Shown here piece by piece: positions 42,101 through 51,100 of a DNA stretch of 64,000 nt. The stretch comes from Escherichia coli. Lineage in GTDB: Bacteria; Pseudomonadota; Gammaproteobacteria; Enterobacterales; Enterobacteriaceae. Position 1 is the stretch's first letter; the number at the start of each line of letters is the position of its first letter. The position numbers are program-made. Location of the stretch: assembly GCF_030013595.1 (NCBI RefSeq), contig NZ_CP122769.1, one strand, 5' to 3'.

Positions 42101-45100
42101 TTTCCAGAAGAAGTCAGCGAAATTCAGAAACGGCCATCACAATGGTGCTGCGCTGACGCTGGCGTTCTGCCTTGCGCTGCCTGCGGCGATAGATCTATTT
42201 TGCGCTGACGTAAGGGCAGTCCTCACGGGTATACCAGCAGCAGCCGCAAGGTTCGGGCCGGGGTTTTCCGGCAAGTCCAAATGGTTTCATCAAGTCACCT
42301 TTTTAATATTTTTAATGGCAAGATACTTCCCTAACACATTGTTTTATCGCATATAACGCTGTTGCATAAACAGATACAGATAACCCTCAGGAGAAAACAT
42401 GCAAAGGTTATCAGTGATAACCGCATCCAGATACCGAGTGTCAGTCTGTAAACGTTTTATCACCAGAAAATGTGCTGCCGCAGCCTTAATGCCAGAACTA
42501 CCGTTTACAACATTATGTATACCCGCTTCGAATAACGAACGAGCATGAATTACCTTTTCCCGGGCCGCTTCGATCTCCGCATTAATAACGCATTGCCGCG
42601 CCTGGATGACTGCCTCTCCGGTTAAATCGCGGAAATTCATTAGAGATGTGATCATGATTAACTCTCCAGATTATGTGGAATCATTATAACAACTGGCATC
42701 CCGCCACAAATAACCTGAGAAAAATTCTTTGAAATATTCCTATATATAAGGAATTACAGTCGGAAAAGAAACGATGAAATAGCGCCGACCGCTTAAAATC
42801 GATAAATTAAAATGGACGGCACTGGAATGAAAAACTGAAAGTAGTAAGACCGTAATTATCCTTCACGGATGTAAGCTTTATAAGAGGAGTACTGGCAAAG
42901 CTTTGCCAAGTACTTCGGCGGTTGTGTCTACGATTTTACGGATGTCATCGATCTGCGAAGGCTTATTCAACACCACCGTAAAAAGCTCTCCTTCGTTATC
43001 AGCCTGCTCGCAGTTTCCGTATCGGCTCCCGTCGTACAGCTGCACAATACGTGACATAGAAGACTTTGTTTGTTTCATGGCTTTGCACCTGCTTTTAGGC
43101 AGTTTGGTTACTGGTTATCAGAAGCTGGTTTCATGCGCTTCCGGCTGGGACACGAACTGGTATTTGACGCCGCCAGGCACACCTACTGCTTCGGCAATAG
43201 AGTCGCAAAGCCGCGATAAATCATTTAGTGTCATCGGATATTCAATATCTACAGAATATAAAGCACCTGCATTTTCAGCATCTTCGATGTTTTTATACTG
43301 GGCACTAAATATAGCAATGGTCTGAATTTCGTGGTTATGCATGAACCGGTCCTTATTAAATTATAAAAGCCACCCGAGAGTGGCCTGAGTTGAAACTTAA
43401 ATCTGTGAAGTATTTTTGAGAGATTTTTTGCGATCCAGATGCCGGGCAACAATGGTTCCGATAACAAGTAGCATGATGACCGCACTGAAGAAGGTGCTGT
43501 CAGGGACGCCCTGGAAAAAATCACTGAAACTGTAAACAATAAAAATCAATGCGCAAAAATAGAAAACGATACGAACATAAGGGGTAAAAAACATTTTCAT
43601 CGGTTGCCTTCCATTCAGGGAGAATTCTCAGTAATTACATCACACCTGAAGAGAAACTATTTTCGTATAAATGAGCATTTTCGACATATCAGAGGGGGGG
43701 TTTACTCATAAATGAGGTAGTAAGGGTCACACTTGAGGTGAAAGTTACTTTCCTGGCTGCGAACGAACTATCTCAAATGTTAGAGGTGTGCGTTCGCCTT
43801 GAGAGCCTCATGCCCTGAGGAGCTCAACTTGAGCCGATAGTATAAACCTGGCTCCAGATGGCTTGCTGGCTGGCATAACTCCACGAGGCCGAGCCGGAAC
43901 AGGACCGGAGAGCTCCTGCACGTCACATCATCAGGATTCCCCATAAACGTACGCCGTTCTCTGGCCCGTCTGAAATTGCCAGAGATATCATAGACCGTGC
44001 CGGATGCCATCCGTCGTAACACGTAAATCTGTGCCATTGTAAGCTTCTGGGCGGAACTGCTTAAACCTGACATACCTTCCCCTCCTTATATAAAACAATC
44101 CGCCAGCAGCTCGACTGGCGGACAATGTTTGACTGGCAACAGCAAGGACATACTATTTAGTGACAAGTTTGATCTTGGTTTCACTCATTCGAAGTCGAAA
44201 CTCCTGAAAACCCTGCTCTACCGCTAACTCCAGCCACTCAACGGGAATGGTATAGCTACAATCAGACCCACCCAAAGCGGCATCACAAGCGTAATCCCAG
44301 TCCTCATCCAGTTTTGGATTCATCCCCTGGGCGTAAGCCACAGTATCGCGGGATGCGGGAGAGCCCTCAAGCTCAGCATTAGTGATCAGGTATACACCAT
44401 GACTGTGCGCGAGAAGCACTTTTGGCACCAGATGTGTGCTGGCAATTTTTGAGGATGAGGGAAAGAAAACCCTACCAGCTTTACGCGCCTCTTCTTCAGT
44501 CTGTCCCTCAGCGTTAAGGAGGGCTCCCCCCGGATAGCATGCCGGGTCATAGATCTGATCTGCGGTGACCGAAAACGTTTTTGCGGTGCGAATTTCTTCG
44601 ATCAGTTTATTAATATCCGCCATTTCAAATACGAGAGTGGTCACAGGCTTACTCTCCCTCTTCAGTGGACAACATCAGATACTTTGTTGCCAGCAGAAGC
44701 TCTCCCACATCCTTGAGGGACAATTCAGCTTTGCCTTCTACGGCAAGCTGCAAGCGCTGTCGAATTGCATGAACAGAATCTGAAGATAAAGATGCCATTT
44801 TGCGCAAAACGGCATTAGCCTTTTCTACAGCAGGATACAGAATTTCTGAGTTGGTATTATCTTCGTCATTATCAAAGATAATTTCAGAATCCATATTGAT
44901 GTTATCTTCAAGCCAGCTTGAAAGCACTTCAAGTAATGACATCACCTTTTCAATTTGCATATCGCCTCCTCTGTTAATGTGAAACAAATATAACAAAGTG
45001 GCTTACCCGGCTAATAACCTGAGCAGAAAGTTTTCGCACTTTGTTTGAAAACAACTTTTCTGCTCAGGTTAATGTTAAAGTCGCTGTGTAAAAGATAAAG

Positions 45101-48100: not shown

Positions 48101-51100
48101 CTTTACATCCATTTTTTTAGGCCTGCCATTTATCTTGACGACATTATGTCTGTCATCAAAAAGAAATTCGTCCCCCTCAAAAGTGATTAATACAAATGGC
48201 CCCTCAGGCTTGGAAGTCCGGGGACTTCCCATTTTCAAAGTCATACTTCAGCCTCTCGATAGAACTCATGAAACCTCAAATTAAAATGGACTCACACCAC
48301 ACTGATTCAGTATTCCTCCTGAACCCCATTAGGCTCTGTTGTGATTTCATATTTAATACCGCCAGGTGCTCCCACAGCGTCCGCGACCGACTCACACAGC
48401 AGCGAGAGATCGTTGAGGGTCATTGGGTGTTCAATGTCCAGCGTGAAGAGTTTCCCGGCTTGCTTGGCGGCTGTCTTGTCAGCATGTTCAGCATTAAAAA
48501 GGTATACGGTGTGTTTTTCCTGAGCGGGGGTATTTTGATTTTGCATTGATGATCCTTTTGTTTAGTTCCCCGATTCCGGGGGTGAGTGAATTAATTTAAA
48601 TTTATATTTGTCTGGTTTAATTAGAACGTTTCCAGGCTATGCGTAAACAGGTAATGCAAAGGCTGTATCAACAGGATTAAAGTTACTTTTCTGGATGCAG
48701 CAACGCTTGGACATGATGTCCACATTACATCACGATCAAAGCTAAGTTTTTTTTGTATAACCCCTTCATTTTCGTGTGTTTCGCGTTTCAGACGCTTATA
48801 CGACCTGCCTGACCATCCTCATCAGAAGGCGGTTTAACAGTCCTTTCGCTGTCGGGCGATTGCTATCGACATAGTAAAAACCTGTTTTGGTCGTACCGTG
48901 AGCACTGCTCAGCACCCTCAGTTCCCAGATAACGTCACGGATAACGCCGCCATTTTCTGGCTTAAGGCATTCAGATAAATGGCGCATGAAACGAGCTCTT
49001 ACGGCACGGTAATAGCGGAACTCCTCTGGCTGGTTAGTATTTTCTTTCACCCGGAGTCGCTGGTTACACAGAGTTAGAACTGCATCCATCATTCCCGCCT
49101 TCAGCTTCGCCTGGATCGCACCTTGTTGCTGTTCCCTCTCACCTTCGAGTAACGTTAAGATTCTTTCTCCGAGTGCCGTCTTGTTGTGTACGTGCAACTG
49201 TACACAGGCAGCTACGCATGCCCAGAATCTGAACTTTTTTATCTGTCCACGCAATTTCCGGGCTACAACCTGACGGTATGCAGTATCGCTGAGTATTTTA
49301 AAACGCCGACTGGCAACCAGCTCTGGAAGCGACACTCTTTCGCCTATCCCCAGGCGGGAAAAGGTTTGTCCCCGTTGTGCGAGACGATGATAGACAGCGC
49401 CCTTCCCTTTTGAAATTCGGACCGCGCCATAACGAAGAAGATACTGAGCAGCAGTCGTTGGAGTAAACTCACCGTCAGCGATGCTCTGGCGTAACCCGTC
49501 GTATTCATGCCAGATAATCCAGGACGCCGTATCTTCTTCAACAGTCAGCTCATCCTCTTCCTCGAATGCCACGACGACAGAACTGCTCTCTCCGGTCTTT
49601 AGGCTACGTGAAGCCCTGGGGTCAGCCTGCCCGTCAAAATAGGTCATCAGCGGCAACGTATCAGTCAGTCCATCATAAGCTGTACCGAACCGGCCTCCGG
49701 GCAGTTTCATCCAGAGTGGAGCTGGCATTGGTGTACGGGCCACAGGCAGCATGTCAGGCTCATCCTCAAGAAGGTCCAGATCGGCCTCTTCCCAGACTCT
49801 GCGATAGATCTCAATTGCCCGAAACGGGCGAGGGTTGAAACAGTGCAACGACCAGAGGAAATCAACGTGGATCACGTTTGCTTCATGTACAAGCCGAAAT
49901 TGTGGCTCAGCCATACGACGGTTATAAGCCGTATCGTCCACCTCGCCGGAAAGTAGCTTTCTGCGATGCTTTGCCGCACGTCTGGCTTCAACATAATCAA
50001 GGCTGCAACAGACATGAAAAAGACGTTCAGTCAGGGACGAAGAAAAGATATTGGGTTGAAGACGCACATACCCGCCTTCGAACACTTTACGACCGATATA
50101 ATCCCGCAGGCTCCAGTCGTACTGGATCTTAGAAAGAAATCGCTGAAGACGACTTAGGCCTGCCTGATAACCATATTTCTCAGGGTCAGTGCGAAGGAGC
50201 GTTTCCATTGAATGGTCAACCCCTACGGCTGTGCAAAGCGAGCACCCATATCTAGCCCCACAAGCTGAGGTTCGCGTGGGTTTCTCCGGCGACCAGATAC
50301 ACTCTCCGGTGGCGTCTTTATAAAGCGTTGCCAGGCTGAAGTTATCCGGCATAAAGCTTGGTAAAGGGAAGCGGGATTCGGAACCACAGGCCATTAGAAA
50401 AGACCAGATGTCCTGAGTGCGCCACTCCTTTACTGGATAGAGTTCACCACCGTGCTCAGTCAGGGTTACTTTCCTCGCCTGCCCTCCCATTTTGAGGATA
50501 TTTCCGGCCCTTCGGGCACTTTCATCATCCCTGGAGCCCAGCATCAGGCATACCCTGCTTCGTACGGATGCCGGGGCGTTTTTTAGATAACGAGCTTTGG
50601 CCTTGCGCAGGGGGGCGATTTTGTAGTCGGTTGAGCACTGACGGGTTGAAGAATTAGTCCAGGTCGGAAGTCCACGTCCAGTCAGAATGCGGCCTACCCA
50701 GCTCTGCGTAAGAGACGGTTGGGCGACAAGGACTGTGACCGGTAGCTGGTGTTCAGCAATGAACATTCTAAGCTGGTTGAGAACCTGTGAAGCCTGATAG
50801 TGCATCTCAGGGTTTTCGATCAGCGTATCGGACATCTGAATGAAATGATGTTCGCTGATATTTGTGCCGTTACGTACTGCCCTGATCAATGCCATCAGAA
50901 ATAGGTGAAGAAGAGAATGGGAGTCTTTACCGCCACTGTATCCCACGCACATCGTCCATCCGTCCGTAATAGCCTGATAAATAGCAGATGTGGCTGACGT
51001 GACCAGAGAAGAAAGACTCACAGTCTCCTTTTCATCGGTATAGTTCAGATCGGCATCGGTTGTCAGGGTCTCCCAAACATCAGCCCATTTATCATGTTTC

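What the first reader, a model, noticed from the sequence alone, without database searches (positions are those of the whole stretch)
42878..48546. Family of paralogous small proteins at the heads of palindrome-preceded operons
Proteins at 43118-43342 (74 aa) and 48307-48546 (79 aa) share the block DIE(Y/H)PMTLNDLS(R/L)LC(D/E)S(I/V)A(E/D)AVG(V/A)PGG(V/I)KY; the 66 aa product of 42878-43078 is a weaker relative. Each sits in a minus-strand operon of small unknown genes behind a palindrome copy, and one operon includes an HNH endonuclease (47154-47720). Duplicated small proteins in accessory islands are typical of anti-defence or establishment functions.
Basis: seen in the sequence. Interest (0 to 1): 0.45.

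Follow-up and report, generated by a model that had tools for sequence, protein, structure and literature searches.

The report
Uncharacterised small protein family, IncHI plasmids
Three related proteins of about 70 residues are an old, conserved part of the backbone of IncHI multidrug-resistance plasmids and are switched on together with the transfer genes, but nothing yet shows what they do.

Summary
The three minus-strand ORFs exist, and they are homologous: 74 aa vs 79 aa, 50% identity, E 2e-26; 66 aa vs 74 aa, E 4e-10.

The window is IncHI2 plasmid backbone, not an accessory island. All three paralogues sit in the same synteny in the IncHI1 plasmid R27. They are under purifying selection, so this is not a recent decaying duplication.

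There are two subtypes, acidic A (p74, p79) and near-neutral B (p66). The ancestral unit is a cassette of a 67-aa two-helix membrane protein, then A, then B, usually behind an ~800-aa DndC-like gene. One lineage has two family domains fused in one protein.

The "palindrome" is AAAGTNACTTT: 21 exact copies against 0.13 expected. It is conserved in distant relatives.

Published R27 arrays show the p74 and p66 orthologues rising 12- and 14-fold in an htdA mutant, like the tra genes.

Function is unproven. An establishment or anti-defence binder is the leading guess (about 0.35).

The parts
48307..48546 (-). p79, an A-type family member (79 aa, net charge -7). It is the first gene behind palindrome 48679 and directly downstream of the DndC-like gene.
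   Evidence: ORF. 50% identity to p74, E 2e-26. The R27 orthologue is 65% identical, dN/dS about 0.32. Charge.
43118..43342 (-). p74, an A-type family member (74 aa, net charge -8). It is the second gene of the mem67-A-B cassette.
   Evidence: ORF. The R27 orthologue is 80% identical, with pN 0.11 against a saturated pS of 0.80. AF2 model is beta-alpha-beta-alpha-beta, pLDDT 79. The R27 orthologue R0092 rises 12.3x in the htdA mutant.
42878..43078 (-). p66, a B-type family member (66 aa, net charge -1). It is the third gene of the cassette.
   Evidence: ORF. E 4e-10 to p74. It clusters with P0048, P0051 and R27 p66 in the NJ tree. The R27 orthologue R0093 rises 14.35x in the htdA mutant.
43397..43600 (-). 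mem67, a 67-aa protein with two hydrophobic helices. It is the first gene of the cassette and the most constant neighbour of the family.
   Evidence: ORF. Homologues lie directly upstream of a family member in R27, L003, L006, L008 and L011 (alignment).
43741..43751 (.). Palindrome AAAGTTACTTT, centred 146 nt upstream of the mem67 ATG.
48679..48689 (.). Palindrome AAAGTTACTTT, centred 138 nt upstream of the p79 ATG.
45948..45958 (.). Palindrome AAAGTAACTTT, centred 157 nt upstream of the 106-aa gene 45476-45796. This is the third copy inside the finding's span.
43367..43386 (-). GC-rich hairpin followed by a T-rich run, between the mem67 stop and the p74 start. It could be an attenuator or an RNA-stability element.
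   Evidence: Terminator-like scan; sequence.
47933..48244 (-). 103-aa gene, second in the p79 operon. It has phage homologues of unknown function.
   Evidence: phrog_30913, E 2.8e-38.
47748..47936 (-). 62-aa gene whose start overlaps the end of the previous gene by 4 nt, which suggests translational coupling.
47154..47720 (-). HNH-motif protein in the p79 operon. It is present in IncHI2 but not in the R27 operon.
   Evidence: Pfam HNH 22.2 bits against a 21.4 cut-off. Weak PtuB/HNH hits. R27 context.
46431..47042 (-). DUF6012 protein, the last gene of the p79 operon. It also recurs near family members in L008 and L011.
   Evidence: Pfam DUF6012, E 1e-33. Contexts.
46356..46371 (-). Intrinsic-terminator-like hairpin (GCCCGG-TAAG-CCGGGC plus a T-run) that closes the p79-to-DUF6012 operon.
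48796..51180 (-). 794-aa DndC-like PAPS-reductase-family protein, a conserved upstream neighbour of the family.
   Evidence: PADLOC DndC, E 4e-38. Pfam PAPS_reduct. NCBIfam DndC 117.6 bits, below the 290 cut-off. The same gene precedes the family in R27, L003, L006 and L011.
33217..34401 (-). ParB-family protein (394 aa) with two palindrome copies (34492, 34618) upstream of its own gene. It is a candidate binder of the palindrome; this is not shown.
   Evidence: Pfam HTH_ParB 26.6 bits. PDB ParB 6s6h, E 1.6e-4. NCBIfam parB_part. Site positions.

Best explanation
p74, p79 and p66 belong to an undescribed, plasmid-only family of ~60-residue beta-alpha-beta-alpha-beta proteins. There are two ancient subtypes: acidic A (p74, p79) and near-neutral B (p66). 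The family forms the soluble part of a conserved IncHI backbone cassette, [67-aa two-helix membrane protein]-A-B, which ancestrally follows an ~800-aa DndC-like gene. IncHI plasmids carry an extra A copy (p79).

Shown:
- The genes are real and under purifying selection.
- In R27 they are transcribed and derepressed 12- to 14-fold, like the tra genes, when the HtdA brake on the TrhR/TrhY circuit is removed.
- Their operons lie behind copies of a highly specific palindrome, AAAGTNACTTT, which marks most backbone operons.

Inferred:
- The palindrome is the operator of a plasmid-encoded dimeric regulator. The candidate is the ParB-like protein at 33217-34401.
- The cassette is therefore produced in a burst when transfer functions are on, and presumably in a fresh transconjugant before repression is established.
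- The proteins act stoichiometrically, probably as A:B or A:A dimers as the natural two-domain fusion suggests. They would bind and neutralise a host or defence protein during plasmid establishment rather than act as enzymes.
For: Real and old:
- All three paralogues are orthologously conserved in IncHI1 R27 in the same order.
- pN is far below pS.
- The tree separates A and B types across four or more lineages.

Cassette and neighbourhood:
- The mem67-A-B (or mem67-A) cassette and the DndC-like neighbour recur in DNA too diverged for megablast.
- One lineage fuses two family domains into a single protein (P0054). AF2 places the two domains confidently (pTM 0.74, domains at pLDDT about 90).

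Protein properties:
- Small, non-enzymatic fold with no catalytic-family hit.
- A-type net charge is -7 to -8 in about 75 residues.

Expression:
- Gibert et al. 2020 (PMC7366339), Table S4: R0091 5.3x, R0092 12.3x, R0093 14.35x and R0071-R0075 4.9-14.9x in the htdA mutant at 25 C, with no effect at 37 C.
- The R-number mapping rests on eight genes between the IS10 and IS1 anchors matching eight RefSeq CDS.

Palindrome:
- 21 copies against 0.13 expected, 82-222 nt upstream of first start codons.
- Conserved in R27, L003, L006, L008 and L011; absent from IncC.

Context:
- A ~38-kb run of mostly minus-strand small genes next to the MobI/relaxase operon contains hok, orphan methyltransferases, ParE, the DndC-like gene and the HNH gene. 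This resembles the gene content reported for leading regions (PMC11541004).
Against: - There is no functional assay.
- There is no sequence or fold similarity to any known anti-restriction, anti-CRISPR or SOS-inhibitor protein.
- The family is absent from phages and viral contigs, unlike many anti-defence families.
- Regulon membership is unspecific, because 139 of 181 expressed R27 genes rise in the htdA mutant.
- The array data come from donor cultures, not recipients.
- The direction of transfer from the MobI-adjacent oriT is not established, even for IncA/C, and the genes lie 27-33 kb from it. 'Leading region' is therefore unproven.
- The constant pairing with a membrane protein points equally to a membrane-associated role.
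- p74 is highly conserved (80% identity between IncHI1 and IncHI2), not fast-evolving as arms-race proteins often are.
Confidence: 0.35

Rival explanations
1. The family is the cytoplasmic partner of mem67 in a membrane-associated accessory module of IncHI conjugation. It could be, for example, an adaptor or chaperone for the H-type T4SS, an envelope-stress or mating-pair modulator, or an exclusion-like function that acts in the donor.
For: mem67 is the most constant neighbour across six lineages. The R27 orthologues are induced 12-14x in donor cultures, in the same range as tra genes. The family is confined to IncHI-type and related plasmids and is absent from IncC, which shares MOBH/MPF_F and the DndC-like gene.
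Against: p79 has no mem67 upstream in IncHI2. In pCFSA1096 an IS21-family element separates p74/p66 from mem67 and from the palindrome promoter, yet the plasmid persists and is typed conjugative, though by prediction only. The genes lie outside the named tra operons listed in the R27 tables.
Confidence: 0.2
2. The proteins are accessory subunits or specificity factors of the ~800-aa DndC-like PAPS-reductase-family protein, for example in a plasmid DNA- or RNA-modification pathway.
For: A family member lies within 1.5 kb downstream of the DndC-like gene, on the same strand, in IncHI2, R27, L003, L006 and L011. In L003 no palindrome separates them, which suggests one transcript.
Against: IncC plasmids keep the DndC-like gene (48% identity) but have no family member. 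The L008 lineage has the family with no DndC-like gene within 8 kb. In IncHI2 and R27 the mem67-A-B cassette is 5-13 kb away from the DndC-like gene.
Confidence: 0.12
3. mem67 is a small membrane toxin and the A/B proteins are its protein antitoxins, forming an addiction or abortive module. This would be loosely analogous to GhoT/GhoS, which pairs a small membrane toxin with a small alpha/beta antitoxin.
For: mem67 is a 67-aa protein with two hydrophobic helices and a basic tail. It is followed by small acidic proteins in one transcription unit. The surrounding region carries other toxin genes (hok, ParE).
Confidence: 0.08
4. The ORFs are non-functional remnants of a local duplication, or chance ORFs.
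For: Very small ORFs. None has a family assignment. The IncHI2 p66 has an aberrant C-terminus (ALPVLLL instead of the GVxVF strand of other B-type members).
Against: The orthologues are intact in IncHI1 and IncHI2 although synonymous sites are saturated. Homologues exist in four further diverged lineages. They are transcribed and regulated in R27. The fold prediction is confident.
Confidence: 0.02

Closest known systems
Small establishment and anti-defence proteins of plasmid leading regions (ArdA, ArdB/KlcA, PsiB, anti-CRISPRs; Samuel et al. 2024, PMC11541004)
   Same: They are small and the A type is acidic. They are plasmid-borne and sit in a long unidirectional block of small genes beside the relaxase/oriT module, together with hok, orphan methyltransferases and other such genes. 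They are expressed together with transfer functions.
   Different: There is no sequence or structural similarity to any of these proteins. No Frpo/ssDNA promoter was identified here. The distance from the putative oriT is 27-33 kb and the transfer direction is unknown. Pairing with a membrane protein is not a feature of those families. No activity has been shown.
KorB/KorA global regulon of IncP plasmids, in which a 13-bp palindromic operator is repeated around the backbone and bound by a ParB-family regulator (from established knowledge of RK2)
   Same: A short, perfectly conserved palindrome ((A)AAAGTNACTTT(T)) occurs in many copies. Most are upstream of backbone operons at variable distances and some are intragenic. 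A ParB-family protein is encoded behind two copies of it.
   Different: The sequence is different and binding is untested. The IncHI circuit known from experiments is TrhR/TrhY-HtdA plus H-NS/Hha (PMC7366339). The F operon, which depends on TrhR/TrhY, has no palindrome upstream. The relation of the palindrome to that circuit is therefore open.
Split beta-alpha-beta / ferredoxin-like small domains (ACT, PurS, HMA)
GhoT/GhoS type V toxin-antitoxin (from established knowledge)
   Same: It also pairs a small two-helix membrane protein with a small alpha/beta cytoplasmic protein in one operon.
   Different: The gene order is reversed. GhoS is an RNase with a four-stranded Cas2-like fold and does not appear in the fold matches. 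A natural IS insertion uncouples the genes without apparent lethality.

Membership tests
Any curated protein family (Pfam-A, NCBIfam, PHROGs, PADLOC) | Profile match above or near the curated threshold | tested here: not met
   p66, p74 and p79 match no family at E<=1 (Pfam, PADLOC) or E<=0.1 (PHROGs, NCBIfam).
Known anti-restriction / anti-CRISPR / SOS-inhibitor proteins | Sequence or fold similarity to a solved or catalogued member | tested here: not met
Known anti-restriction / anti-CRISPR / SOS-inhibitor proteins | Measured inhibition of a defence system | not testable with these tools
   This needs conjugation or phage challenge assays.
Leading-region (early-entry) genes | Location just inside the first-transferred side of oriT, oriented so that the T-strand is the template | tested here: inconclusive
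   A MobI homologue lies at 15553-16092 (Pfam E 3.5e-22), which places oriT at about 15.0-15.5 kb by analogy with IncA/C (PMC5587640). The family lies 27-33 kb away on the minus strand. That strand would be the right orientation only if the + strand is the one transferred, which is unknown.
IncHI backbone genes | Conserved position in both IncHI1 and IncHI2 plasmids | tested here: met
   1084 PLSDB records match, and the top records inspected are typed IncHI2A/MOBH/MPF_F. R27 has all three paralogues in the same order.
HtdA-repressed (TrhR/TrhY-dependent) regulon of IncHI plasmids | Derepression in an htdA mutant at 25 C but not at 37 C | tested here: met
   Met from the literature for the R27 orthologues: R0092 12.3x and R0093 14.35x at 25 C, 1.6x and -1.55x at 37 C (PMC7366339 Table S4). 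The mapping of R-numbers is my inference from gene counts between the IS anchors. It was not measured for the IncHI2 genes themselves.
KorB-like global operator system | Multi-copy palindromic operator bound by a ParB-family regulator | tested here: inconclusive
   Copy number and specificity are met (21 vs 0.13 expected). A ParB-HTH protein with two sites upstream of its own gene exists. Binding is not testable here.
HNH endonuclease (neighbour 47154-47720) | Pfam HNH motif above the gathering score | tested here: met
   22.2 bits against a 21.4 cut-off, over only the first half of the model. This is marginal.
DndC (neighbour 48796-51180) | Equivalog-level match and the presence of dndA/B/D/E partners | tested here: not met
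   NCBIfam DndC scores 117.6 bits against a 290.4 cut-off. No dnd partners are annotated nearby. The gene is DndC-like only.

The most novel reading that the evidence does not exclude
IncHI plasmids and their uncharacterised relatives run a global regulon that has not been described. Its operator would be the 13-bp palindrome (A)AAAGTNACTTT(T), read by an orphan ParB-family (KorB-like) protein. The mem67-A-B cassette would be one of its outputs: a new membrane-anchored establishment or anti-defence module whose beta-alpha-beta-alpha-beta subunits have no known structural relatives.
Probability: 0.2. Interest if true: 0.65.

Novelty: new member of a known kind. Interest (0 to 1): 0.38.

Why it matters
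IncHI1 and IncHI2 plasmids are major carriers of mcr-1, tet(X4), ESBL and typhoid multidrug resistance. More than half of their backbone genes are still annotated as hypothetical.

This work defines one conserved, regulated cassette (membrane protein plus A and B small proteins) and the palindrome that marks it and some twenty other sites, most of them just upstream of backbone gene runs. That gives concrete handles: deletion targets and operator mutations for asking how these plasmids establish in new hosts.

If the small proteins neutralise a host defence, they would be a new anti-defence fold. If not, they are ordinary conserved hypothetical genes, now better delimited.

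Tried and rejected
- A fourth paralogue. The tblastn hit of p79 at 20324-20566 (E 0.044) lies in frame inside the TraG/TraD coupling-protein gene (19982-22066). It is chance.
- Long repeat proteins in the exhaustive search (P0044, P0049, P0053 at 1565-1850 aa; P0057). P0057, the one whose sequence I read, matches only a repeated 'DAKDGRVxFAVDIEYP...SPDGK' motif, which I took to be a beta-propeller-type repeat. I assumed the same for the three long proteins without fetching them. These are not relatives.
- Family libraries. Pfam, PADLOC, PHROGs and NCBIfam gave nothing for the family.
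- Phage and viral collections. There was no relative.
- Palindrome as the TrhR/TrhY activator box. This is unlikely as the sole explanation. The TrhR/TrhY-dependent F operon (trhF) has no copy upstream in either IncHI2 or R27, while the HtdA-independent R operon does.
- Literature. No paper in the searchable library contains the palindrome sequence, the RefSeq accessions or the R27 gene numbers in a relevant context. Nothing on an IncHI leading region was found.
- The 15-bp perfect palindrome TGGACATGATGTCCA at 48708-48722 is a single copy, not a family.
- L003's ~330-aa and L006's ~250-aa genes lie behind palindromes but are not homologous to the window's ParB-like protein.

Full report
**What the window is.** The 7 kb around the finding matches 1084 PLSDB plasmids, 586 of them at 99% identity or more. 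They come from Escherichia, Salmonella, Enterobacter and Klebsiella, and 996 are predicted conjugative. The two top records I opened are typed IncHI2A / MOBH / MPF_F.

The window runs as follows:
- Tra1 mating-pair genes occupy 1-15 kb on the minus strand.
- The TrhR (14138-14938) and TrhY (13624-14136) homologues follow, identified by position and size against R27.
- A MobI/TraH homologue lies at 15553-16092 (Pfam MobI, E 3.5e-22).
- The MobH relaxase and the coupling protein lie at 16830-22066.
- From about 26 kb to 64 kb there is a run of mostly minus-strand small genes.

So the finding lies in conserved IncHI backbone, not in an accessory island.

**The observation.** The three ORFs are as described.
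- p74 vs p79: 50% identity over 64 residues, E 2e-26.
- p66 vs p74: 34% over 41 residues, E 4e-10. p66 vs p79: E 1e-5.
- A profile of the three finds only these three in the six-frame translation of the window.
- A weak tblastn hit at 20324-20566 falls in frame inside the coupling-protein gene and is chance.

**The palindrome.** It occurs 21 times exactly in the window against 0.13 expected, and only one site has a single mismatch. I place fourteen or fifteen of the copies between genes. Eleven of those lie 20-222 nt upstream of the first start codon of a gene run, most between 82 and 222 nt. Within the finding:
- The copy at 48679 lies 138 nt before the p79 ATG.
- The copy at 43741 lies 146 nt before the ATG of a 67-aa membrane protein (mem67), which precedes p74 and p66.
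- The copy at 45948 lies 157 nt before a 106-aa gene.

"Head of the operon" is therefore true for p79 only.

The p79 unit is p79, then a 103-aa gene, a 62-aa gene (4-nt overlap), the HNH gene and the DUF6012 gene. It ends at a strong terminator-like hairpin at 46356-46371. The mem67 unit is mem67, a hairpin at 43367-43386, then p74 and p66.

**How old and how real.** IncHI1 R27 carries all three paralogues in the same arrangement:
- A p79-like gene (72793-73017) sits after the PAPS-reductase-family gene and a 154-aa membrane protein.
- mem68, the p74-like gene and the p66-like gene sit at 85764-86489.

Nei-Gojobori counts between IncHI2 and R27 are as follows:

| Gene | pN | pS | Note |
|---|---|---|---|
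| p74 | 0.11 | 0.80 | pS saturated |
| p79 | 0.25 | 0.54 | dN/dS about 0.32 |
| p66 | 0.34 | 0.86 | pS saturated |

These are long-maintained coding genes, not a recent duplication with a decaying copy. A neighbour-joining tree separates an A type from a B type. The A type holds p74, p79, P0025, P0045 and P0046. The B type holds p66, P0048 and P0051. p79 is an A-type duplicate older than the IncHI1/IncHI2 split.

**How wide.** An exhaustive profile search of 1.84 billion representative proteins gave only 27 hits at E<=1e-3. Several of these are truncated or frameshifted copies, and a few are unrelated repeat proteins. Fetching the contigs of the distant members showed a recurrent layout:

| Locus | Gene order |
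|---|---|
| L003-L005 | DndC-like (808 aa), mem68, A (P0045), B (P0048), then homologues of the window genes 42344-42655 and 40867-41472 |
| L006 | homologues of 51854-52645 and 51353-51802, DndC-like (802 aa), mem67, A (P0046) |
| L011 | methyltransferase, DndC-like (801 aa), 154 aa, mem68, A (P0025), DUF6012, B (P0051) |
| L008 | mem67, then a single 155-aa protein made of two family domains (P0054), DUF6012 nearby, no DndC-like gene within 8 kb |

The mem67 proteins align across six lineages. L003 has no megablast match in PLSDB, so these are diverged relatives. IncC plasmids keep the DndC-like gene (48% identity) but have neither the family nor the palindrome. The family is absent from the phage collection, PHROGs and IMG/VR.

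The same palindrome is present 4-6 times in each 12-16 kb slice of L003, L006, L008 and L011, and 24 times in 97 kb of R27.

**What the proteins look like.** AlphaFold2 on a 17-sequence alignment gives a beta-alpha-beta-alpha-beta domain: E7-13, H19-24, E28-33, H39-53, E59-64. Mean pLDDT is 79, with the core at 83-90 and a disordered acidic tail. The most conserved stretch, D-I-E-Y-P-M-T-L-N-D-L-S, spans the end of strand 2, the following loop and the start of helix 2. The B type conserves its own helix-2 motif, DDIxKIVDTTAEVLGK.

- A-type proteins carry net charge -7 to -8; B-type proteins -1 to -5.
- No curated family or PDB sequence matches.

I read the fusion, together with the constant A-B adjacency, as weak evidence that family domains work as dimers. 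This is inference.

**Expression and regulation.** Gibert et al. 2020 (PMC7366339) measured all R27 genes in wild-type and htdA-mutant (drR27) plasmids. In Table S4, R0085 is the IS10 transposase and R0094/95 are IS1. Between them lie eight genes, R0086-R0093. RefSeq lists exactly eight CDS between IS10-right and the end of the p66-like gene. By this count R0091 is mem68, R0092 the p74 orthologue and R0093 the p66 orthologue.

| R27 gene | Wild type, 25 C | htdA mutant, 25 C | Fold change |
|---|---|---|---|
| R0091 | 221 | 1179 | 5.3x |
| R0092 | 576 | 7103 | 12.3x |
| R0093 | 302 | 4327 | 14.35x |

- There is no effect at 37 C.
- The five upstream genes R0086-R0090 change only 1.8-3.8x. The step up coincides with the R27 palindrome at 85552, between R0090 and R0091.
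- R0071-R0075, the block before IS10-left that contains the DndC-like and p79-like genes, change 4.9-14.9x.
- tra genes change 5-27x.
- 139 of 181 expressed R27 genes rise in this mutant, so membership of this regulon is real but unspecific.

**Who reads the palindrome.** This is not known. It is unlikely to be simply the TrhR/TrhY box. The TrhR/TrhY-dependent F operon has no copy upstream in either plasmid, while the HtdA-independent R operon does.

A candidate is the 394-aa protein at 33217-34401:
- It has a ParB HTH domain: Pfam 26.6 bits; Caulobacter ParB 6s6h, E 1.6e-4; NCBIfam parB_part.
- It has an N-terminal region that looks ParB-like by eye.
- It has two palindromes upstream of its own gene, in IncHI2 and in R27 alike.

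That is the architecture of the IncP KorB regulon (from established knowledge). Binding is untested. No paper in the searchable library contains the sequence.

**Most likely mechanism.** The steps marked as shown rest on the evidence above; the rest is inference.
- Shown: a conserved, selected and transcribed cassette, co-induced with transfer genes and preceded by a specific operator-like palindrome.
- Inferred: a burst of expression when the transfer programme is on and in new transconjugants, and small non-enzymatic proteins acting as dimeric binders.
- Guess (about 0.35): they neutralise a host or defence factor during establishment. This follows from the acidic charge, the neighbourhood (hok, ParE, orphan methyltransferases, the DndC-like gene, HNH) and the analogy with leading-region gene sets (PMC11541004).

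Several points count against it:
- There is no similarity to any known anti-defence protein.
- There are no phage homologues.
- p74 is strongly conserved.
- The transfer direction is unknown; the nic site was not mapped even for IncA/C (PMC5587640).
- The constant membrane partner points elsewhere.

Rivals:
- A membrane-linked conjugation accessory with mem67 (0.2).
- An accessory of the DndC-like enzyme (0.12). IncC has the enzyme without the family, and L008 has the family without the enzyme.
- A mem67 toxin with A/B antitoxins (0.08). In pCFSA1096 an IS21-family element leaves mem67 on its promoter but cuts off p74/p66.
- Non-functional ORFs (0.02).

**Verdict.** The family is a genuinely unannotated, plasmid-restricted protein family in a clinically important plasmid group, but of unknown function and modest surprise. 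The more interesting by-product is the palindrome regulon. I give interest 0.38 and class the novelty as a new member of a known kind (small conserved backbone or establishment proteins of conjugative plasmids).

Noticed in passing
whole window; copies at 485, 2049, 2950, 5043, 11955, 14574, 15015, 15410, 18833, 20271, 22001, 26903, 34492, 34618, 43741, 45948, 48679, 53728, 57940, 62108, 63143: The palindrome (A)AAAGTNACTTT(T) occurs 21 times exactly (0.13 expected), with only one single-mismatch variant. Most copies are upstream of backbone operons. It is conserved in R27 and in four diverged relatives and absent from IncC. It looks like the operator of a global regulon and does not appear in the searchable literature.
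   Followed up: partly
33217-34401 (-), with sites at 34492 and 34618: An orphan ParB-family protein (HTH_ParB domain) is preceded by two copies of the palindrome, in both IncHI2 and R27. It is a candidate KorB-like binder of the palindrome.
   Followed up: partly
13030-13624 (between the trhY end and the next minus-strand gene run) and 14938-15553: The oriT/MobI intergenic region carries two palindromes (15015, 15410), one before trhR and one before mobI/traH. The gap upstream of the trhF-type operon has none, although that operon is reported to depend on TrhR/TrhY.
   Followed up: partly
window ~42.0-43.4 kb compared with L001 and L002: Different IncHI2 plasmids carry different insertion sequences in this short stretch: IS1, IS66/ISCro1, IS21/IS100, ISSso4, IS3, ISVsa5. 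In pCFSA1096, ISSso4 sits between mem67 and p74. This suggests an insertion hot spot, or a region where insertions are tolerated.
   Followed up: partly
L008:8001-8468 (P0054): A 155-aa protein consists of two tandem family domains. The two halves cluster with each other in the tree, so this is an independent duplication-fusion. AF2 gives pTM 0.74.
   Followed up: yes
48796-51180 (-): An ~800-aa DndC-like PAPS-reductase-family protein with a long C-terminal extension matches 2544 PLSDB plasmid records. They include IncHI2, the IncHI1 plasmid R27 and IncC (48% identity). Weaker matches (23-30% identity) occur in Pseudomonas, Burkholderia and Vibrio plasmids. It scores well below the DndC equivalog cut-off, no dnd partners are nearby, and its function is unknown.
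   Followed up: partly
42878-42900 (3' end of p66): The IncHI2 p66 ends in ALPVLLL, whereas R27 and other B-type members end in a (R/T)xGVxVF-type strand. No alternative frame restores that strand, so IncHI2 has a fixed variant C-terminus.
   Followed up: yes
48708-48722: A perfect 15-bp palindrome, TGGACATGATGTCCA, lies about 20 nt upstream (in the minus-strand sense) of the p79 palindrome. It is a single copy in the window.
   Followed up: yes
47933-48244 (-) and 42344-42655 (-): Two neighbouring 103-aa genes have phage homologues of unknown function (phrog_30913, E 2.8e-38; phrog_8549, E 2.9e-9), unlike the family itself.
   Followed up: no
43780-44073 (-): A 97-aa ORF lies between DUF3085 and the mem67 palindrome. 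It is not in the PLSDB gene tables of the matching plasmids and has no Pfam hit. Whether it is a gene was not resolved.
   Followed up: no
38303-40272 (-): An IS21-family element (istA 39100-40272, istB 38303-39103) interrupts the backbone between the hok region and the 201-aa gene. The IncHI2 records I inspected carry other insertion sequences around this region.
   Followed up: no
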